Source: Actinomycetota bacterium (GTDB lineage: Bacteria > Actinomycetota > Acidimicrobiia > IMCC26256 > PALSA-610). From it: DNA of 64,000 nt. The stretch spans positions 11,594 to 75,593 of the forward strand of contig SXHN01000035.1 in the NCBI GenBank assembly GCA_005773635.1, in the 5' to 3' direction. The translations under genes were made by a program, and so were the position numbers. Of this stretch, positions 4,666-41,014 are shown piece by piece (positions within the stretch are counted from its first letter, which is position 1; each line of letters opens with the position of its first letter). The notes below the pieces were generated by a model. That model was not told the DNA's origin and did no database searches. It worked only from the letters and a program-made list of their open reading frames with translations.

Positions 4666-4757
4666 AAGGCAACCTCCTACTCCACGGGCTGGACAACCGC
4701 AATGTAGCCCGTCTCGCTCATGGGCGCTCGCTCACAGCATCAACTAAGTTCAGCGAT

Positions 4758-4848
4758 GGAGGTGCAAGGGGTCTGGTGGCCCCCCTTGTCTTCAACACAA
4801 GTGTGACGGGTACACCCCGTCGGGTGGGTTCGATTCCTGCCACCTCCG
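4758..4848 (+). tRNA. selC: tRNA-Sec (anticodon UCA)
   Basis: The acceptor GGAGGTG pairs with CACCTCC. The D stem is 6 bp (GGGGTC/GGCCCC) with a 4-nt loop TGGT. The anticodon arm is CTTGT-CTTCAAC-ACAAG, with TCA at 4792-4794. The variable arm has a 6-bp stem (GACGGG/CCCGTC) and the T loop is TTCGATT. selA and selB are in the same window. CCA is not encoded. Confidence 0.85.
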
Positions 4849-4870
4849 CTTGTCAATGGCGACTGCTTCG

Positions 4871-33969: not shown

Positions 33970-34076
33970 ACCTCGGTTCTGATCCTCTGGGAGCGCCCAA
34001 ACGGGCGCTCCCACGCGCGCAAAACCTGCCAAAGTTCAGCTCGGAGCCGTAGACGGGCGGCAACTAGCCTCCGCTG

Positions 34077-34466
34077 TTGATGAAGGTCTTAATTGCTGCC
34101 GATGCCGAGTGGGTTCGCAACACGATCAGGGGCGCATTTGTCGCTACTGGCCAAACCGTGATCGAGGTCGTGCGCGGTCAGGATGTCAGAAAGACCGTTG
34201 CTGTCGAATCACCCGACTTGGTGATCCTTGATAGCCAAATTGGCAATATGGGTGGTGTTGCCGTTGCGCTCGACTTGCGACTCGAAGAAGGTGCGGGCCG
34301 GCTCGACCGTTCCACCATCATCTTGTTGCTCGACCGCGAGGCCGACGAGTTCGTAGCGAAGCGCGCCAATGCGGACGCAACGCTCGTGAAGCCACTCGAT
34401 GCAGGCACGTTACGCCGCACCGCCAAGCGCCTCTTGACGAACTCTGTCGCGGCGACGCGCTCGTGA
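34077..34466 (+). CDS. Single-domain response regulator (CheY-like receiver)
   Basis: 129 aa with KVLIAADA, DLVILDSQIGNMGG and TLVKP receiver motifs. Confidence 0.75.
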   Translation: MMKVLIAADAEWVRNTIRGAFVATGQTVIEVVRGQDVRKTVAVESPDLVILDSQIGNMGGVAVALDLRLEEGAGRLDRSTIILLLDREADEFVAKRANADATLVKPLDAGTLRRTAKRLLTNSVAATRS

Positions 34467-35227
34467 ACGACATTGAGCTAGCGGGCCGCGTTGCGCGCGA
34501 AGCCGGAAAGCTGCTGCTGGAGATCCGCGCCCAAGCCGCGATCGATGGCCTCGATGGAAAAGCACTGAAGGACAAGGGCGACCACGACAGCAACGTTTTG
34601 ATCCTTGATCGTTTGCGCACAGAACGCCCGAACGACGCGATTCTTTCCGAGGAATCCAAGGACTCCGCCGAACGCCTCGCGTCGGACCGCGTGTGGATCG
34701 TCGACCCCGTCGACGGCACGCGCGAATATTCAGAAGGCCGCGAAGACTGGGCTGTGCATATCGCGCTGGTTTCCAATGGCATTCCGATCGTGGGCGCGGT
34801 TGCTCTGCCGTCGCTCGACAAGGTGCTCGTCACAAAACCCGCACCTTCAATTGTTCCATCGAACGCGCCCAAGCCGCGGCTTGTGGTGTCACGGTCGCGG
34901 CCGCCGAAACTCGCGGAATACCTTGCAGGCATTCTCGGCGCCGACCTGGTACCAATGGGATCCGCGGGAGCGAAGACGATGTCGATCATCTTGGGCCAGT
35001 CGGATATTTACGCGCACTCCGGCGGTCAATACGAATGGGATTCGTGCGCTCCAGTTGCTGTCGCTTCGGCTGCGGGATTGCACTGTTCACGCCTTGACGG
35101 ATCCGATCTCATATACAACAACGCCGATCCGTATCTGCCAGATTTGTTGGTGTGCCACAAGCAATACGCAGTGCGGGTGCTCGCGGCGATCGCGTCTGCA
35201 CCAGCGGGCTCCTTCGACACCGCCTGA
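34463..35227 (+). CDS. cysQ: 3'(2'),5'-bisphosphate nucleotidase / inositol monophosphatase family
   Basis: LSEES, WIVDPVDGTREY and WDSCAPVAVASAAG motifs are present. A GTGA overlap joins it to the receiver gene. Confidence 0.8.
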   Translation: MNDIELAGRVAREAGKLLLEIRAQAAIDGLDGKALKDKGDHDSNVLILDRLRTERPNDAILSEESKDSAERLASDRVWIVDPVDGTREYSEGREDWAVHIALVSNGIPIVGAVALPSLDKVLVTKPAPSIVPSNAPKPRLVVSRSRPPKLAEYLAGILGADLVPMGSAGAKTMSIILGQSDIYAHSGGQYEWDSCAPVAVASAAGLHCSRLDGSDLIYNNADPYLPDLLVCHKQYAVRVLAAIASAPAGSFDTA

Positions 35228-35292
35228 TTGGCAGGCGCCGCACGCCTGGCGACACACGGTTGCCGTCGCACGGTCGACGCGTTTGGCGAGTC

Positions 35293-35338
35293 GGCGACAC
35301 AGAGCCCAGACGGTTGGCGACACAGAGCCCAGACGGTT
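35293..35338. repeat. Perfect 2 x 23-bp tandem repeat (GGCGACACAGAGCCCAGACGGTT)
   Basis: The units are 35293-35315 and 35316-35338. A shortened copy, GGCGACACACGGTT, lies at 35248-35261. All are in the intergenic region upstream of tRNA-Pro. Confidence 0.9.
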
Positions 35339-35492
35339 GGCGCGTTTGTGTACCCCCGGCGGTCGAATAACGCGCCAACCCGGCATGACCCTTCAGCGAC
35401 GGCGCGAAAGTCGACCGCCCACGGTACGAAAACGCGCCAACGCTTCGAACCGCCGGGAGGGTCGACGGATAGAGTGCCCCAGCTTCACCAAA

Positions 35493-35570
35493 CGGGGTGT
35501 AGCGCAGCTTGGTTAGCGCGCAGCGTTCGGGACGCTGAGGCCCCGGGTTCAAATCCCGGCACCCCGACCA
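35493..35570 (+). tRNA. tRNA-Pro (anticodon CGG), CCA encoded
   Basis: The acceptor CGGGGTG pairs with CACCCCG. The anticodon arm is CAGCG-TTCGGGA-CGCTG, the T arm is CCGGG-TTCAAAT-CCCGG, and the 3' end is ACCA. Confidence 0.9.
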
Positions 35571-35733
35571 CATAAGTCCAGTTCAGAGCCTATGCAATTC
35601 AACTAGGCAAAACCGGCAGGCAAATTCCATCCCGCGAGCATCCCGCGGACGATTGAAAAAGCAGTCGCGAAAACCGACGCGAGCAGTCGAAGCGCTGTAG
35701 CGCAGCGACCCACGCGAATTTGCCGAACGGGTA

Positions 35734-35772
35734 CTTGCATAACGCTCACAGACCGGGCAATCGGAGCGGGTT
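35734..35772 (+). repeat. Island repeat copy R1
   Basis: CTTGCATAACGCTCACAGACCGGGCAATCGGAGCGGGTT. Confidence 0.9.
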
Positions 35773-35858
35773 ACCCCGCGACTCTCGATGCTTGACTCAC
35801 ACACTGCCATCAGGGCATTATGCGCCGGTGTTGAAGCGGCGCACTTCTCGACGCGGCC

Positions 35859-36407
35859 TTGCGAAACTGCGAGCACGGTGTGATTGACGACGAGGCCCAA
35901 GTCGCTGTCGAAGTCGTTGTGACCCGACATGACATTGCCGCGTTAATGCGCTCGTTTGAGGGCGATGCGCCTGCTCGAATGCGCTTCGTTGGTGGGTCGT
36001 GGATGTTTCTTAAAGGTTTGAGTGGTGTCTCCGCCGTGGTTTTCACGATAGTGACACCGTGGGCATGGGTTCTTGTCGCTCTTGAAGGTGCCGTGCTCAC
36101 TCTCGAATTCGTAGGTCGTCGACAACAACAATCGTTGTACCCCGTCGCCGCATTCAACGGCCAGTATCTCGCATCTCCGGAGGGGATGGTACGGACCAAT
36201 AGCTTTTCGCAAACAACAGTGGCGTGGCCGAGTATCGTCGCACGAAGTACCGGCGATCGTTACCTCATCTTGTGCGGCGGTTCCGGTTGGGTGATCCCAT
36301 TTCGCTGTTTCAACTCCGACGAGCATCGCGAACATTTCCACGGTGTTCTCATGCACGTTGCAGCGAAAGATTCACCCAACCCGAACGCGTCATCTCCCAG
36401 CACATAG
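35859..36407 (+). CDS. YcxB-like small membrane protein (two central TM helices)
   Basis: The sequence has VVVTRHDIAALMRS..., two hydrophobic helices (GVSAVVFTIVTPWAWVLVALEGAVLTL) and a C-terminal WPSIV..YLILCGGSGWVIPFRCF, matching the YcxB-type layout. The start is uncertain (TTG 35859 or GTG 35880). Confidence 0.5.
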   Translation: MRNCEHGVIDDEAQVAVEVVVTRHDIAALMRSFEGDAPARMRFVGGSWMFLKGLSGVSAVVFTIVTPWAWVLVALEGAVLTLEFVGRRQQQSLYPVAAFNGQYLASPEGMVRTNSFSQTTVAWPSIVARSTGDRYLILCGGSGWVIPFRCFNSDEHREHFHGVLMHVAAKDSPNPNASSPST

Positions 36408-36424
36408 CTCTCTGCCGCCCGGTG

Positions 36425-36462
36425 CTTGCATAACGAGGCGGATCGGGCATTCGGAGCGGTTG
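36425..36462 (+). repeat. Island repeat copy R2
   Basis: CTTGCATAACGAGGCGGATCGGGCATTCGGAGCGGTTG, beginning 17 nt after the stop of the YcxB-like gene. Confidence 0.85.
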
Positions 36463-36467
36463 TCGAT

Positions 36468-36782
36468 CTACTCGGGTAATACGAATGACTGAGCGGCAAT
36501 CACGATGGCGTCTCCGCTTTGCATCTCGATCGTTAGCTCGCCGGGCGCAACACTCAATGAGTTGACCGAGACGCTGGGACCCCACGGTTGTTGACGGGAC
36601 ACACGGACTTCGAGCACTTCCTTTGCAACGAGGGCAAAGGTGCTCACTGCATTGCTCAGGAGAACAACGGCGCTACCGGTGGCCCAGTCGAACTCGACGC
36701 TGAGCAGAGTGGCGTCATGGAAGTCCATCGACGTGAAGGTACTGCCCTGCGTCACGACACGTCTGCCGTTTGGTACTTGCAT
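36468..36782 (-). CDS. Hypothetical small protein, inverted relative to the repeat array
   Basis: 104-aa ORF with a beta-rich, coding-like sequence (MDFHDATLLSVEFDWATGSAVVLLSN...). Its ATG (36782) lies inside the CTTGCAT of repeat R3; an alternative start is M19 at 36728. Confidence 0.5.
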   Translation of the reverse strand: MQVPNGRRVVTQGSTFTSMDFHDATLLSVEFDWATGSAVVLLSNAVSTFALVAKEVLEVRVSRQQPWGPSVSVNSLSVAPGELTIEMQSGDAIVIAAQSFVLPE

Positions 36783-36797
36783 AACGCTCGCAGACCG
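36776..36797 (+). repeat. Island repeat copy R3, left half (interrupted by IS)
   Basis: CTTGCATAACGCTCGCAGACCG; the match to the consensus then stops abruptly at 36798. Confidence 0.85.
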
Positions 36798-38225
36798 AAG
36801 GTCCTATGTGTTGTCAAGGGGTTGTTTCGGCGGTGCTGGCACACCAGTGATGAGTCAGTCGTGTTGACGACAAGGTCTTATTAAGCCATGCGGTGCCGAG
36901 GCTTTGTTGGTGGCGGGCCGGCAGTTCGTTCGAGAGACAACCGTGTTGGTGTCAGGGCATTCGTAAGCCAGGCCCGCCACACTCTTTGTGGTGTTATCGG
37001 TTGATGAGGTGGGGGTAGACCTCCCGTGCGACGTAACGCTTCAAGATGCGCATGATCTCGCGGGTTGGGCGTCCATCAGCTGTACGTCGTGCAACATATT
37101 TGCGGGTGCGTTCATCGTTACCCATCCGGGTTAACACGATCCGCCACAGTGCATGGTTGGCTTGACGGTTCCCGCCTGGATTGACTTTCATACGTTTCGA
37201 TTTACCTGTGGATGCTTTCAATGGTGCGACGCCACACATATGCGCGAACGCTGCTTCACTTTTCAAACGTTCGGGATTATCGCCCGCCGCGACGAGTAAC
37301 ACCGCAGCTGTGTAGGTCCCGACGCCGTATACCTCACGCAACGTCGGGGCGGTCCGGCGGACGAGCTGTTCGAGGAGCTCATCGAGTCGGGCCCTATCGG
37401 CATCGAGCGCGACGACGCGCCGCCCCAAGGTTTGGATCGCGAGTTTTGTCGCGTACACGACAGTGTCGCTCTTAGGGTTTGGTCGTAACGCGGCGGCGGT
37501 CTTCGCGAGACGTTCTCGTGAAACATCCCGGAATTGTTCACGGATCGTCTCGGGTGCCGTGAAGCCGAGGTGTCGGATCTGATTCAGATATTTGATCCGC
37601 ACATCGCGTGCCGAACGACGAGCGACAAGTAACGCACGGATCGCTTCCACGTCACCATCACCGGTCTTCGCGACCCCTTCAGCACGTCGCGAGAGCGCGG
37701 CGCGTGCGGCTTCGATCGCGTCGAGTTCGTCGGATTTGCCGTTACGACGCCGATCCTGACGGTTGGGACGGTCAACTTCGATCACGATCACGTCGTGGCG
37801 TTGCAAGAAACGTTTGATCCCCGCACCATACGAACCCGTGCCTTCGACTCCGACCCGGGTCGATCTCGCCATGAGCCGCGAGCCAGTCATGCAGGCTGCG
37901 GAACCCGGCCGCTGTCGTCGGGAATGATTCCACACCCAAGACACCACCGTTGTGGTCGAGTACTGCAGCCACACGTTCGTCCGCGTGCGTGTCAATGCCA
38001 CCCGTTACCGGGCCGCGAATATCTACGATGGTCATCTGCCATCCCTTCTTGGTTTAACGGTATTGAGGGGTGGCACGCACGTCCCGTGAAAGAGACCCTG
38101 TCGTGCTGGCTGCGCTAACAGTCAGCACGGTCACTCTCTGGAACGGGGCGTGCCCTATTTCAGTCCCGGCCTTATCGGCGAACACCCCGGAATGTGAACC
38201 GACTTGCACAACCCCATTCTCACTG
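36798..38225 (-). mobile_element. IS110/IS1111-family insertion sequence (~1.43 kb) inserted in repeat copy R3
   Basis: The element is bounded by the two halves of repeat R3. It carries a DEDD-type IS110 transposase. Sub-terminal inverted repeats GTTGTCAAG (36810-36818) and CTTGCACAAC (38203-38212) each lie 12 nt from an end. The boundaries are accurate to +/-2 nt. Confidence 0.75.
36994..38035 (-). pseudogene. IS110-family transposase, frameshifted
   Basis: The N-terminus (MTIVDIRGPVTGGIDTHADERVAAVLD..LHDWLAAHGEI, ORF 37772-38035) continues in another frame as RVGVEGTGSYGAGIKRFL...GKSDELDAIEAARA (ORF 36994-38001). The frame switches at the CCCGGG run at 37854-37859. Confidence 0.75.
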
Positions 38226-38244
38226 GGCAATCGGGGCGGGTTGG
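38226..38244 (+). repeat. Island repeat copy R3, right half
   Basis: GGCAATCGGGGCGGGTTGG resumes the consensus exactly where the left half stopped. Confidence 0.8.
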
Positions 38245-38277
38245 AACCAACGTTGTGAACACGGAGTCTTAAGAGGT

Positions 38278-38727
38278 GTGAAGCTTTCTTTTGTTGTTCG
38301 AACGCTGTCTCTAGTCATGCTGTTCTCGGCCTGCAACAACCCTCAAACCAGAAGTTCCCCTGTCACTACCACTTTGGGAGGGCAAGCGTCGTCGACCTCA
38401 ACGACGTTGCCTGCGATCGAGATCCGCAAATTCTCGGCGAAGCTCGGGTGCGGTCCGTCGGATGGTGCCTGGATATATATGGAGGTTGAGCTTGGAACTG
38501 CGCAAACGGTGTTCGCGGAAGTCTCCCAAGATGGACGGTCGTATGGGAGGTCTAAGAACACCCGCGCAGAGGCGGACTCGTTGATCCGTCTGGGATTTGA
38601 TCCTGCCGTTGAGAATACGAGTGACCCAAATTTGCGGGTCACGCTCTTCAGCATCGACGGACGTACGACAAGGAATCTCGGTGAACGGACAGTTGAACCA
38701 CATCCGCCAGACCGGAAGTGTGGATGA
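38278..38727 (+). CDS. Putative lipoprotein
   Basis: After a GTG start the sequence reads VKLSFVVRTLSLVMLFSAC (signal peptide plus lipobox), followed by an S/T-rich linker. Confidence 0.6.
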   Translation: MKLSFVVRTLSLVMLFSACNNPQTRSSPVTTTLGGQASSTSTTLPAIEIRKFSAKLGCGPSDGAWIYMEVELGTAQTVFAEVSQDGRSYGRSKNTRAEADSLIRLGFDPAVENTSDPNLRVTLFSIDGRTTRNLGERTVEPHPPDRKCG

Positions 38728-38749
38728 GGTGCACAACTGGCGTTCCCCG

Positions 38750-38792
38750 CTTGCAATAACACGCACAGACCGGGCAATCTGAGCGGATGGTT
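38750..38792 (+). repeat. Island repeat copy R4
   Basis: CTTGCAATAACACGCACAGACCGGGCAATCTGAGCGGATGGTT, beginning 22 nt after the preceding stop. It contains the ATG of the next gene. Confidence 0.9.
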
Positions 38793-39266
38793 TTGCGTCG
38801 CACGTCGGTGATCCTCGGTCTTGCGTTCGTCGTCGCCGGATGCTTTCAATCATCTGGTAAGAGCAACATCAATTTGGGCCTTGTCGAACCCTGCTCTTGG
38901 CTAAGAATCCAAGATGTGCGTCGGATTATTGGCCCGAATGTTGGGGTTGGTGCGCCCAATCCGCACTTTCCGCAGTGCAGTTTTGACTACACAAGTGCGA
39001 CTGGAATCCGCACAGATCTGGTTGTCGGATACGGGGAAGTAACTGCGCAGTCGATTCGGAGCTTCACGCTCCCAAATCATCGTAACCAGGTCGTCGAAAA
39101 TCTTGGCGATCACGCAGTCTTCCTTGAGGCAGCTTCTCTAGATGACGGCAACAACATCATTTTGGTTGTCGCCTCGCACAACCGGTCGCTTCTCATTGGG
39201 GGAGAATTTTTGAACCTTGATCAAGCAAAGCAACTCGCCGCACTGGTCATCGCGAAATGGACTTAA
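38787..39266 (+). CDS. Putative lipoprotein (DUF3558-like layout)
   Basis: MVLRRTSVILGLAFVVAGC forms a lipobox, and the mature part has two further Cys. The ATG lies inside repeat R4. Confidence 0.6.
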   Translation: MVLRRTSVILGLAFVVAGCFQSSGKSNINLGLVEPCSWLRIQDVRRIIGPNVGVGAPNPHFPQCSFDYTSATGIRTDLVVGYGEVTAQSIRSFTLPNHRNQVVENLGDHAVFLEAASLDDGNNIILVVASHNRSLLIGGEFLNLDQAKQLAALVIAKWT

Positions 39267-39283
39267 CGCACATCGGTAACCGA

Positions 39284-39324
39284 CTTGCATAACGAGCGCG
39301 GACCGGGCAATCTGATTGGGTTGG
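39284..39324 (+). repeat. Island repeat copy R5
   Basis: CTTGCATAACGAGCGCGGACCGGGCAATCTGATTGGGTTGG, beginning 17 nt after the preceding stop. Confidence 0.9.
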
Positions 39325-39356
39325 TCCTAAGACTGGTTTGATGGACGGATGGATTC

Positions 39357-39805
39357 GTGCCAGAGCCCGAGGATCCTCGCAGTTTTGCCATGATGACGAG
39401 ATGGATCATCCTTGCGCTGTTCTCGCCAGTCGTGATTTTGGGGTTGATCGGTGCTGTCGCGGCGCCAACAACATTCGAGCGAATTGCCGTATTCGCTTTT
39501 GGTGCTGGTTTCTCAGTGTTCGCTGGCGAGTGTGGAGGCAACGCGTCGAGGTTCACGAAACTCAGATAGTCATCGTCGGTTTCGCAAGGCGGCGCGTTTT
39601 GGGTCGAACTGATGTCCGATCGTTATCGTACGAAGGGCTATCTCGCTCGCTAGTGCTGAACACCATTGCAGGAAAGCGCGTTACCGTTTCCTTTATAGGT
39701 CAAGGCAAGAGTCGCTCCGAGGCCTTTGGTCGGGGCTCAGAAGCGACGATTGCTGAATTGGCCGCGTACCTGGGCGTGCCATTCGACGGCGCAAGATCGA
39801 ACTGA
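39357..39805 (+). pseudogene. 2-TM membrane protein with C-terminal beta-rich domain, apparent frameshift
   Basis: The N-terminus with two TM helices (WIILALFSPVVILGLIGAVAAP, IAVFAFGAGFSVFAG) ends at TAG 39569. A plausible C-terminus (VEVHETQIVIVGFARRRVLGRTDVRSLSYEG...) continues in the frame of ORF 39338-39805. The switch lies near 39535-39555. Confidence 0.4.
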
Positions 39806-39844
39806 CTGATGCACCTGAGTAGCAGCGCGGCCACGGGCACGGGA

Positions 39845-39913
39845 CTTGCATAACGCTCACCGTGTTGCGCTGGCGATAGCGGCCCGCACCGGGTATCGTG
39901 CAGCGGTGGCTGG
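39845..39913 (+). repeat. Island repeat copy R6, with a 27-nt insert in its centre
   Basis: CTTGCATAACGCTCAC [CGTGTTGCGCTGGCGATAGCGGCCCGC] ACCGGGTATCGTGCAGCGGTGGCTGG. Confidence 0.8.
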
Positions 39914-40316
39914 TGGTCGTGGGGACGCAAAGCGGCAGGCGAGCGAGGACCTCATCGTGGCCTTCGTTACACCGCTCCTCGATAGCGATGAGGGGATCGT
40001 GGCCGTCGTGGCTGCAGCCTGTGGCCCTCTGCCGCCGTTCACACCGCTGATTCCTCTGTTCGGTGTGATCGCGATGTTCACGCGATGGCTTGGAGTCTTC
40101 GCTTTGGTCGCGACGAACCAGAGGCTTCTGTTGGTGCGGCGCGCCAAGTTCTGGCAGGGATTGCCGCAGAAAATCGACCTCGCGGAACCGTTGGAAAGTG
40201 TCGACGTGACTAGTTGGCGGGACGGCTCGCGCTACGGCAAGCTCCGTATCGAGATCGGGGGCGAGGCGAGGCGACTGTGCGTGCCGCACCCTTTAATCGC
40301 GACGTTCCGACCATGA
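39906..40316 (+). CDS. 2-TM membrane protein with C-terminal beta-rich (PH-like) domain
   Basis: GTG 39906 lies inside repeat R6. Two helices (IVAVVAAACGPLPPF..LIPLFGVIAMF, LGVFALVATN) are followed by LLLVRRAKFW...GKLRIEIGGEARRL. The ORF could start earlier, at 39846. Confidence 0.55.
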   Translation: MAGGRGDAKRQASEDLIVAFVTPLLDSDEGIVAVVAAACGPLPPFTPLIPLFGVIAMFTRWLGVFALVATNQRLLLVRRAKFWQGLPQKIDLAEPLESVDVTSWRDGSRYGKLRIEIGGEARRLCVPHPLIATFRP

Positions 40317-40442
40317 TCTCGGCGATCACTCGCTCCTCGTCGACGGCATCAACGCCAACACAGGATGACCCACCGAAACCCCGATCACCGGAATAACCCG
40401 ACAACCACTTGACAGATCACCGGAATAACTGCCGTTATAGAA

Positions 40443-40484
40443 TTGCAATCACGATCGCAGAGCGGGCAATCTTGGCGGGTGGCT
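40443..40484 (+). repeat. Island repeat copy R8 (most divergent)
   Basis: TTGCAATCACGATCGCAGAGCGGGCAATCTTGGCGGGTGGCT. Confidence 0.75.
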
Positions 40485-40541
40485 AGGAGATCGTCGTTGT
40501 TGGTCTGTTTCGCTGCTGCTGTGATTCTCGGTGGCTGTTCG

Positions 40542-40781
40542 TCATCGAGCGATTCTCCAGCATCTCCTGATGCCTATTTGTGGTTCGTCGCCCGGCACTT
40601 CTTTCGCTTCAGCCAGATGGATCTCGGTCTGACCATCGAACTCCGCCAGGGTCCCGACGACAAGCGCCGACGGCGACGCTGCGATCGAGCGGGTTCCCAG
40701 GCTTTCAGGAAGCACGCCCGAGGCCGGGTCAAGCACCAGCACCAACCCGTTCGGCGGCGATATGCGTGACATCAGACTCAT
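40542..40781 (-). CDS. Hypothetical 79-aa protein (third gene of overlapping module)
   Basis: MSLMSRISPPNGLVLVLDPASGVLPESLGTRSIAASPSALVVGTLAEFDGQTEIHLAE... The ATG overlaps the stop of the HTH gene (ATGA). Confidence 0.5.
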   Translation of the reverse strand: MSLMSRISPPNGLVLVLDPASGVLPESLGTRSIAASPSALVVGTLAEFDGQTEIHLAEAKEVPGDEPQIGIRRCWRIAR

Positions 40782-41014
40782 TGCGGACCATCTACGGTTA
40801 CGACCTCGCCGGGCGTCGCACACGCGATCAAGTTGATGCCGGTCTCGTATAACAGTCCGGCTTCTTCGAGCTGCTCGGGGTTCAGTGTTCGTCCGCGCCA
40901 TCGATGGCCTGCAACATCGTTTCGTTTGAGGTGTGCCATGACCGTGTTGCGATCGATTCCAAACTGCTCTGCCAAGGCGTTGATCTCAGCGCCTTGGCAG
41001 TCGGCGCGCCGCAT
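40778..41014 (-). CDS. Small helix-turn-helix protein
   Basis: GAEINALAEQFGIDRNTVMAHLKRNDV is a resolvase/HTH_23-like HTH. The start is taken at ATG 41014, which shares one nt with the upstream stop; the ORF extends to 41056. Confidence 0.55.
   Translation of the reverse strand: MRRADCQGAEINALAEQFGIDRNTVMAHLKRNDVAGHRWRGRTLNPEQLEEAGLLYETGINLIACATPGEVVTVDGPQ

What the first reader, a model, noticed from the sequence alone, without database searches (positions are those of the whole stretch)
36776..38244. IS110/IS1111-family element inserted precisely in the centre of repeat copy R3
The repeat consensus runs to ...CAGACCG at 36797 and resumes with GGCAATCGG... at 38226. The intervening ~1428 bp encodes an IS110-type DEDD transposase. 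It carries sub-terminal inverted repeats (GTTGTCAAG at 36810-36818; CTTGCACAAC at 38203-38212), each 12 nt from an end, as in the IS1111 subgroup. No obvious target duplication is visible. IS110-family elements are known to be sequence-specific, with REP elements, attC sites and transposon IRs as targets, so the repeat behaves as a recognised recombination target. The IS end next to the right half (CTTGCACAAC-CCCATT-CTCACT) resembles the displaced left half of the repeat (CTTGCATAAC-G-CTCAC-AGACC). This regenerates a TTGCAC-N18-CAATCG arrangement in front of the downstream lipoprotein gene. The transposase is frameshifted at the CCCGGG run at 37854-37859.
Basis: partly seen in the sequence, partly recalled or inferred. 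Interest (0 to 1): 0.6.

Follow-up and report, generated by a model that had tools for sequence, protein, structure and literature searches.

The report
Guide-RNA insertion sequence splitting a repeat
A 1.4-kb mobile element of the IS110 family, which appears to choose its landing site with its own guide RNA, sits exactly in the middle of one copy of a short host repeat; its transposase gene is broken, and it is an ordinary but well-resolved example of a known kind.

Summary
Confirmed. Window 36798-38225 is a 1,428-bp IS110-family insertion sequence with its transposase on the minus strand. It splits one copy of a ~45-nt host repeat, and joining 36797 to 38226 restores the repeat colinearly.

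- **Target:** the genome holds at least 23 repeat copies. Twenty-two related elements (69-75% identical) in other genomes of the family end at the same bases. They sit at the same point of the same or a similar motif, which also occurs uninterrupted there.
- **Mechanism:** the 196-nt end downstream of the transposase gene folds into two stem/internal-loop/hairpin modules with 14 compensatory pairs. The loop strands match the target flank and the element's own ends, and they change with them across relatives. This is a bridge (seek) RNA.
- **Transposase:** it carries a +1-nt frameshift, assembled identically in two sequencing runs. Intact relatives encode one 346-348-aa protein, so this copy is disabled.

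Three side claims are weaker:
- The sub-terminal inverted repeat is neither above chance nor conserved.
- The nearest named relative is ISEc21 (IS110 group, not IS1111).
- The rebuilt TTGCAC-N18-CAATCG is real sequence but untested as a promoter.

New member of a known kind. This scan has met many IS110 bridge-RNA elements before.

The parts
36762..36797 (+). Left half of host repeat copy R3 (holds the TTGCAT word at 36777-36782)
   Evidence: matches the other copies and aligns colinearly once rejoined to 38226.
36798..38225 (-). IS110-family insertion sequence, 1,428 bp, transposase on the minus strand
   Evidence: Pfam domains. 22 relatives share both termini next to unrelated flanks.
36798..36811 (-). 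Element end downstream of the transposase gene (RE tip; left donor arm in transposase orientation)
   Evidence: conserved A(A/T)G(C/G)TCCTATG in all relatives. The host base pair before it is always CG.
36812..36817 (-). Outward-facing TTGACA, the -35 half of a promoter completed only when the two ends are joined in a circle
   Evidence: invariant in 20/20 relatives. Joined to the other end, it gives TTGACA-N17/18-GAGNAT (sequence inference).
36827..36982 (-). Bridge/seek RNA candidate: two stem/internal-loop/hairpin modules (target-binding 36909-36982, donor-binding 36827-36899)
   Evidence: 97.8% of cells paired against 24-51% when slid. 14 pairs show compensatory change.
36955..36963 (-). 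Left target guide (5' strand of the first loop): same sense as the target flank next to the tnp-upstream end, plus the first core base
   Evidence: 8/9 here and a mean of 7.35/9 over 20 elements. It changes with the flank (GGGCATTCG / GGCAGTTCG / GGCAGTTAT types); permutation p<1e-4.
36925..36931 (-). Right target guide (GAACG, 36927-36931) plus a 2-nt handshake-like pair (36925-36926)
   Evidence: complementary to core CG plus 3 nt. The match is perfect in L050 and L056, which carry private changes. The next 2 nt complement the last 2 nt of the element's end (TT or AT, by group).
36872..36881 (-). Left donor guide (5' strand of the second loop)
   Evidence: 9/10 identical to the element's own end 36798-36807. 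This copy's private G-to-C change is present in both.
36845..36850 (-). Right donor guide (UCACUG in RNA)
   Evidence: complementary to the first 6 nt of the tnp-upstream end (CAGTGA in transposase orientation). Invariant, as that end is.
36994..37869 (-). Transposase, C-terminal reading frame (291 aa plus stop)
   Evidence: PF01548 positions 47-148 and PF02371.
37775..38035 (-). Transposase, N-terminal reading frame (87 aa); the frames part at the run 37854-37859
   Evidence: PF01548 positions 2-47. One extra base compared with intact relatives.
38066..38160 (-). Conserved ~90-nt hairpin in the non-coding end upstream of the transposase gene, function unknown
   Evidence: nearly invariant in sequence across relatives, with compensatory changes in the apical stem. 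No change with the target.
38161..38212 (-). Variable spacer of the upstream end. It includes 38197-38212, which is 15/16 identical to repeat copy R5 (39278-39293), and TTGCAC at 38204-38209 on the + strand
38213..38225 (-). Element end upstream of the transposase gene (LE tip, ...CTCACTG on the + strand)
   Evidence: conserved in all 22 relatives.
38226..38262 (+). Right half of host repeat copy R3
38278..38727 (+). Downstream host gene: small lipoprotein-like ORF (signal peptide ending in a Cys lipobox), now cut off from the repeat's left half
   Evidence: ORF with no Pfam hit. The lipobox is read from the translation.

Best explanation
An IS110-family, RNA-guided insertion sequence recombined as a circle into the centre of a dispersed host repeat.

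The non-coding end downstream of its transposase gene encodes a two-loop bridge (seek) RNA.
- One internal loop pairs with both strands of the repeat around a CG core.
- The other loop pairs with the element's own joined ends.
- The DEDD/Ser transposase then exchanges strands without duplicating the target.

An outward TTGACA at one end and GAGAAT at the other would form a promoter only in the circle.

This copy has since acquired a +1-nt frameshift at codon ~57 of the transposase. It can no longer move by itself, though it might with a transposase supplied in trans.

Shown here: boundaries, target identity, RNA structure, guide/flank correspondence and the frameshift. Inferred: that the RNA is made, which strand it comes from, the circle intermediate and the junction promoter.
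For: - Domains and family model: (NF033542, 'IS110 family RNA-guided transposase', 164 bits against a cut-off of 140 for an intact relative).
- Rejoined flanks equal an intact repeat.
- At least 23 repeat copies in the genome.
- 22 relatives have identical termini. Their targets are CG|GGCAWT, CG|GCAGWT and similar. The uninterrupted motif occurs 4-5 times each in two of those genomes, with 0 control hits.
- The downstream end folds into two bridge-RNA-like modules with strong covariation.
- The loop strands match the target and donor and change with them.
- The geometry equals that of IS621: a long 5' guide that includes the core, a short 3' guide, and 2 handshake bases 3' of it (PMC11208160, PMC11208158).
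- Intact relatives have one 346-348-aa ORF. The window has one extra base, seen in two runs.
Against: - No RNA data exist: no RNA run holds the stretch.
- The RNA strand is not settled. The opposite strand folds more stably in 20/20 relatives, and the G-U versus A-C counts are 5 versus 9.
- The right target guide is short. In most elements, this one included, it has a central mismatch.
- The left target guide here has one mismatch to the occupied site, while a perfectly matching copy at 36442-36462 is empty.
- Only one copy is in the assembled genome, so specificity rests on relatives, which are not independent of each other.
- Rfam has no matching family.
Confidence: 0.85

Rival explanations
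1. The functional guide RNA is not the tnp-sense transcript of the downstream end. It is either the opposite-strand transcript of the same region or an RNA from the 190-nt upstream end, as in ISEc21 and IS621.
For: - Opposite-strand folds are more stable in all 20 sequences.
- The nearest named relative, ISEc21, keeps its seekRNA upstream.
- The upstream end holds a very conserved hairpin.
Against: - The upstream hairpin is invariant between groups that use different targets, so it cannot specify them.
- It is one long stem, not two large internal loops.
- The order and lengths of the guides and the handshake position fit the IS621 plan only in the tnp sense (PMC11208158).
- G+U-rich strands fold more stably for compositional reasons.
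Confidence: 0.12
2. The element's upstream end is shaped, by capture or conversion from a repeat copy or by selection, to replace the displaced half of the repeat. Insertion would then rebuild a -35/-10 arrangement and keep the downstream lipoprotein gene expressed.
For: - TTGCAC-N18-CAATCG stands at 38204-38233, against the native TTGCAT-N17-CAATCG.
- The IS end resembles the displaced half (p about 0.025).
- 38197-38212 is 15/16 identical to copy R5, including 6 nt outside the repeat core.
- In several repeat copies a start codon follows 6-10 nt after the second hexamer.
Against: - TTGCAC is absent from all 22 relatives at that place.
- A simple sigma-70 scan does not call the repeat a promoter.
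- There are no transcript data.
- In some copies a better promoter-like site lies after the repeat.
- One 16-nt match could be chance, or a local conversion without function.
Confidence: 0.2
3. The element came to lie inside a repeat by duplication or homologous exchange of an already occupied repeat, or by mis-assembly, not by targeted insertion.
For: - There is a single assembled copy.
- Contigs of the runs break at the repeat and at 37514-37547.
Against: - Relatives in several genera lie at the same base of the motif, with unrelated outer flanks.
- A contig crosses the left junction. Contigs with 21-31 nt on the element's side cross the right junction.
- The guide loops match the flanks.
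Confidence: 0.03
4. The frame change at 37854-37859 is a programmed ribosomal frameshift, or a sequencing error, and the transposase is made.
For: The change lies in a C/G homopolymer run.
Against: - Six relatives encode a single uninterrupted 346-348-aa ORF with one base fewer here.
- The extra base is present in contigs of two runs, one at depth 54.
- Programmed frameshifting is not a known trait of this family (own knowledge).
Confidence: 0.04

Closest known systems
IS621 and its bridge RNA (IS110 group; Durrant et al. 2024, PMC11208160; Hiraizumi et al. 2024, PMC11208158)
   Same: - DEDD plus Ser/Thr-Gly transposase.
- Two internal loops, each with a long 5' strand identical to the top strand up to the core and a short 3' strand complementary to the core plus the right arm.
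- Two handshake bases 3' of that.
- A 2-nt core and no target duplication.
- A repeat as target.
   Different: - The RNA lies downstream of the gene here, not upstream.
- No detectable sequence match to solved IS621 chains or to Rfam.
- The core differs between target (CG) and donor (CA, in transposase orientation).
- There is an extra conserved hairpin upstream.
ISEc21 (IS110 group; Siddiquee et al. 2024, PMC11187229)
   Same: - Nearest named transposase: 46% identity over 88% of the length.
- Similar size class (345-385 aa).
- The bottom-strand match lies 5' of the top-strand match in the RNA.
- Its circle junction also creates a promoter.
   Different: - ISEc21 carries its seekRNA in the upstream end and has a very short downstream end.
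- Its target is an IS3-family transposase gene, not a host repeat.
IS1111-group elements (ISEc11, ISPa11, IS4321/IS5075, IS1111-attC)
   Same: - The guide RNA lies in a long non-coding end downstream of the gene.
- Transposase of about 340 aa with a Thr-Gly variant of the motif.
- Insertion in one orientation into repeats (REP, attC, transposon ends).
   Different: - No significant sub-terminal inverted repeats.
- The order of strand matches is the IS110 one.
- The transposase is closest to ISEc21.
- A second long non-coding end lies upstream.
ISPpu9/ISPpu10, which target REP or one conserved intergenic sequence in Pseudomonas putida (PMC12288879; bioRxiv 10.64898/2026.03.19.712850, abstracts only)
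   Same: IS110-family elements that land in many copies of one host intergenic repeat.
   Different: A different host phylum and a different repeat. Here the repeat is direction-bound to the following genes and shows no conserved hairpin.

Membership tests
IS110 family (broad sense, RNA-guided DEDD transposases) | N-terminal RuvC-like DEDD domain (PF01548) and C-terminal PF02371 domain | tested here: met
   PF01548 is split over the two frames (profile positions 2-47 and 47-148). PF02371 scores E 1.4e-15.
IS110 family (broad sense, RNA-guided DEDD transposases) | Curated family model reached by the full-length protein | tested here: met
   an intact relative (L046, 348 aa) scores 164 bits against the cut-off of 140 for NF033542.
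IS110 family (broad sense, RNA-guided DEDD transposases) | Conserved G..P....S/T-G motif in the C-terminal domain | tested here: met
   Read in the translation: G-V-A-P-L-K-A-S-T-G, the Thr-Gly variant. The motif is as described in PMC11187229.
IS110 family (broad sense, RNA-guided DEDD transposases) | Site- and orientation-specific insertion without target duplication | tested here: met
IS110 family (broad sense, RNA-guided DEDD transposases) | Non-coding end encodes a structured RNA whose loops match target and donor | tested here: met
   (computational only; no RNA data).
IS110 family (broad sense, RNA-guided DEDD transposases) | Circular intermediate whose junction forms a promoter | not testable with these tools
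   Only the sequence fits: an invariant TTGACA lies 13-14 nt from one end, and GAGNAT starts 4 nt into the other.
IS1111 subgroup | Sub-terminal inverted repeats of 7-17 bp | tested here: not met
the best inverted repeat in this copy is 8 bp (p about 0.07). None of ten relatives tested has a significant one.
IS1111 subgroup | Long non-coding end with the guide RNA downstream of the gene | tested here: met
   An equally long upstream end exists too.
IS1111 subgroup | Top-strand match 5' of bottom-strand match in the RNA (PMC11187229) | tested here: not met
   in the tnp sense, the bottom-strand (same-sense) guide is 5' and the top-strand guide is 3'. This holds only if the RNA is tnp-sense (one search leaves that open).
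IS1111 subgroup | Transposase groups with IS1111-type transposases in a tree | not tested
   No ISfinder reference set was at hand. The nearest annotated named relative is ISEc21.
IS110 subgroup, ISEc21 cluster | Transposase similarity and size (345-385 aa) | tested here: met
   346-348 aa in intact relatives; 46% identity over 88% to the ISEc21-family transposase.
IS110 subgroup, ISEc21 cluster | Guide RNA in the upstream non-coding end, short downstream end | tested here: not met
   the upstream structure does not vary with the target, and the guide loops are downstream.

The most novel reading that the evidence does not exclude
These Acidimicrobiia elements would form an undescribed architectural lineage with three traits.
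- An ISEc21-like (IS110-group) transposase whose complete two-loop bridge RNA has moved to the downstream end.
- A second, sequence-invariant ~90-nt hairpin of unknown role kept upstream.
- An upstream sub-terminal region patterned on the displaced half of the target, so that insertion into a promoter-like repeat rebuilds the -35/-10 spacing for the host gene.
Probability: 0.2. Interest if true: 0.5.

Novelty: new member of a known kind. Interest (0 to 1): 0.3.

Why it matters
The finding gives a worked natural example of bridge-RNA targeting in an uncultured freshwater actinobacterial lineage, with guide and target changing together across about 20 relatives. It shows that a conserved, promoter-like host repeat is the landing site. 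For annotation, it explains the split repeat, the pseudogene, and both structured non-coding ends. It adds no new principle. The mixed IS110/IS1111 traits and the target-like element end are the only points a specialist might follow up.

Tried and rejected
- **Rfam:** a scan of 34000-41000 at E<=1 found only tRNA-Pro and a chance miRNA hit.
- **Solved structures:** a sequence search found no match.
- **RNA evidence:** no RNA holder is listed among public runs.
- **Empty site:** contigs gave no joint across the element, so none was seen.
- **Orthologous locus:** neither flank was found in the two same-genus genomes, so no uninterrupted orthologous locus could be aligned.
- **ORF 36471-36782 (minus strand):** no homologue in 62 genomes of the family and no Pfam hit. 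Its coding status stays open.
- **Promoter scan:** the sigma-70 consensus scan does not call the repeat a promoter.
- **attC-like reading of the repeat:** rejected. No conserved dyad symmetry, and the two main variants differ in which arms could pair.
- **sigma-54 reading:** rejected on spacing.
- **RNA strand:** fold energy and wobble counts were inconclusive.
- **L045 flank as proof of the circle junction:** the flank begins with 8 nt of the other IS end but then matches internal IS sequence, so it is a rearrangement. I did not use it.
- **A segment just 5' of the first stem:** it resembles the right target arm in the same sense in several relatives but not in this copy. It overlaps the stem and has no place in the IS621 plan. 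Left unexplained.

Full report
**Observation.**
- The word ending at 36797 and the word starting at 38226 each recur in other repeat copies of the window, with none expected by chance.
- When 36754-36797 is joined to 38226-38262, the product aligns without a gap to five uninterrupted copies.
- A profile built from these copies finds at least 23 copies in the 3.56-Mb draft genome. They cluster on contigs C8, C53, C30, C72 and C18, with single copies on C20, C11 and C35.
- The intervening 1,428 bp carry a minus-strand IS110-type transposase. PF01548 is split between two frames at profile position 47, followed by PF02371.
- An intact relative reaches the curated NCBIfam model 'IS110 family RNA-guided transposase'.

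**Boundaries and target.**
Only this copy, plus a 102-nt remnant on C20, is in the assembly. I therefore used relatives.
- Genomes of the same family hold many elements 69-75% identical over the full length. Record titles of more distant hits name Acidimicrobiales and Ilumatobacteraceae MAGs.
- For 22 of these I located both ends.
  - All start with A(A/T)G(C/G)TCCTATG and end with CTCACTG on the window strand.
  - The host base pair before the start is CG in 21 of the 22; the exception is L045, set aside below.
  - The host sequence after the end falls into types GGCAWT, GCAGWT and one outlier.
- The flanks differ further out, so these are independent insertions.
- One element from another genus (L005) sits in a recognisable copy of the same repeat. 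Five from a third genus sit in a related motif.
- That related motif occurs uninterrupted 4-5 times in each of two of those genomes, with no hits to the reversed control.
- In transposase orientation the target reads LT-CG-RT and the joined ends read ...CTT-CA-GTGAG. Only one base is shared, and nothing is duplicated.

**How it works.**
- Structure of the downstream end.
  - The 196-nt end downstream of the gene aligns well across 20 relatives. It folds into two like modules: a long stem, a 13+13-nt internal loop and an inner hairpin.
  - On the named structure, 97.8% of cells pair, against 24-51% when partners are slid. Fourteen pairs show compensatory change, and no shuffle reaches the observed values.
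- First loop (target).
  - The 5' strand of the first loop (36955-36963) has the same sequence as the host flank beside the tnp-upstream end plus the first core base. The match is 8/9 here and 9/9 in several relatives, with a mean of 7.35/9.
  - This strand switches between three forms in step with the three flank types (permutation p<1e-4). Relatedness inflates that figure.
  - The 3' strand holds GAACG, complementary to the core CG plus three bases. Most elements, this one included, have a central mismatch.
  - Two relatives with private changes in this word (L050, L056) match their own flanks perfectly.
  - The next two bases complement the last two bases of the element's end, and they change from AA to AU exactly where that end changes from TT to AT.
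- Second loop (donor).
  - Its 5' strand (36872-36881) repeats the element's own end (36798-36807) in 9 of 10 positions, including a change private to this copy.
  - Its 3' strand complements the first six bases of the other end.
- Comparison with IS621.
  - This is the IS621 plan of left and right target and donor guides with handshake bases (PMC11208160, PMC11208158).
  - An invariant outward TTGACA lies 13-14 nt from one end, and GAGNAT lies just inside the other end. Together they would give a promoter only in the circle, as shown for ISEc11 and ISEc21 (PMC11187229).

**Caveats on the RNA.**
- No RNA run holds the stretch, and Rfam has no matching family.
- The opposite strand folds more stably in all 20 sequences, and wobble counts do not decide the strand.
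- I favour the transposase sense because only then do guide lengths, core inclusion and handshake position fit the solved system.

**The upstream end.**
- The upstream 190-nt end holds a different feature: a ~90-nt hairpin that is almost invariant in sequence across relatives which use different targets. It therefore cannot be the target guide. Its role is unknown.
- Between the hairpin and the tip lies a spacer that varies in length and sequence.

**State of this copy.**
- Six relatives encode a single 346-348-aa protein.
- The window has one extra base in or next to the C run at 37854-37859.
- Logan contigs of two runs from one study reproduce 37518-38225 without any difference, one at depth 54. 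The frameshift is therefore real in that population rather than a slip of one assembly.
- Both runs may be the source of the MAG, so they are not independent of it.
- Several relatives are also degraded.

**Classification.**
Its left arm is the conserved TTGACA.
- The closest annotated named transposase is ISEc21, at 46% identity over 88%. ISEc21 keeps its RNA upstream and has a short downstream end.
- In the tnp sense the order of strand matches is the IS110 one, while the RNA position is the IS1111 one.
- Siddiquee et al. note such exceptions: IS110-type elements with a downstream end, and 26 elements with two long ends.
- I therefore file this as a new member of the IS110 family in the broad sense, with the subgroup open.

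**The repeat and the rebuilt spacing.**
- The repeat points the same way as the ORFs that follow it. In several copies a start codon follows the second hexamer by 6-10 nt, which suggests a promoter for leaderless or short-leader messages.
- A plain sigma-70 scan does not call it a promoter, and its 45-nt conservation exceeds what a promoter needs.
- The element's upstream end resembles the displaced half. It is 15/16 identical to copy R5, including six bases outside the repeat core, and gives TTGCAC-N18-CAATCG.
- Relatives lack that word. I regard a functional hybrid promoter as possible (about 0.2) and untested.

**Other copies.**
- Contig ends in the runs show another sequence that shares 38190-38223 but differs to its left.
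- They also show a second continuation after 38241 that begins within the last 21 nt of the element. Neither is in the MAG.
- This hints at a second copy in another repeat, but it cannot be resolved from contigs.

Noticed in passing
window 38197-38212 and 39278-39293: The element's sub-terminal segment is 15/16 identical to the left part of repeat copy R5. The identity includes 6 nt upstream of the conserved repeat core, where other copies differ. These are the only two such sites in the genome within 1 mismatch.
   Followed up: partly
window 36442-36462: The repeat copy 350 bp upstream reads GGGCATTCG. That is a perfect 9/9 match to the element's left target guide, yet the copy is unoccupied. 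The occupied copy has one mismatch.
   Followed up: partly
window 38066-38160 (minus strand): A ~90-nt hairpin upstream of the transposase start is almost invariant in sequence across relatives 70% identical overall, with compensatory changes only in its apical stem. Its function is unknown, and it is not a target guide.
   Followed up: partly
window 39861-39887: Repeat copy R6 carries a 27-nt insert replacing two bases, 5 nt upstream of the point where the IS sits in R3. It is not an IS footprint of the expected precise kind.
   Followed up: partly
G000:C20:2576-2677 (L002): A 102-nt remnant is 87% identical to the transposase gene (window 37502-37603). It lies about 500 nt from an intact repeat copy (C20:2030-2071).
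   Followed up: partly
window 38190-38241 (runs X1-X3): Contigs of the runs branch here. A 7.6-kb contig shares 38190-38223 but continues differently to the left, and another contig continues differently after 38241. This is probably a second, diverged copy in another repeat. It is absent from the MAG.
   Followed up: partly
window 36468-36782 (minus strand): A 104-aa ORF has its ATG inside the TTGCAT word of R3's left half. It has no Pfam hit and no homologue in 62 related genomes. If it is real, the IS lies 15 nt upstream of its start.
   Followed up: partly
window 35493-35570 and 4757-4849: tRNA-Pro(CGG) lies directly before the first repeat copy of the array. A tRNA-Sec gene lies at 4757-4849.
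   Followed up: no
L045 (G067:C2), flank next to the tnp-downstream end: The flank begins with 8 nt of the element's other end and then matches 9 nt of the element's own first-loop region. This is a junction-like rearrangement or a self-insertion.
   Followed up: partly
window 35792-35821: A sigma-70-like site (TTGACT-N18-CATTAT) lies about 20 nt after repeat copy R1. Similar words follow two copies on C53, and the second hexamer again sits in a GGGCAWT context.
   Followed up: no
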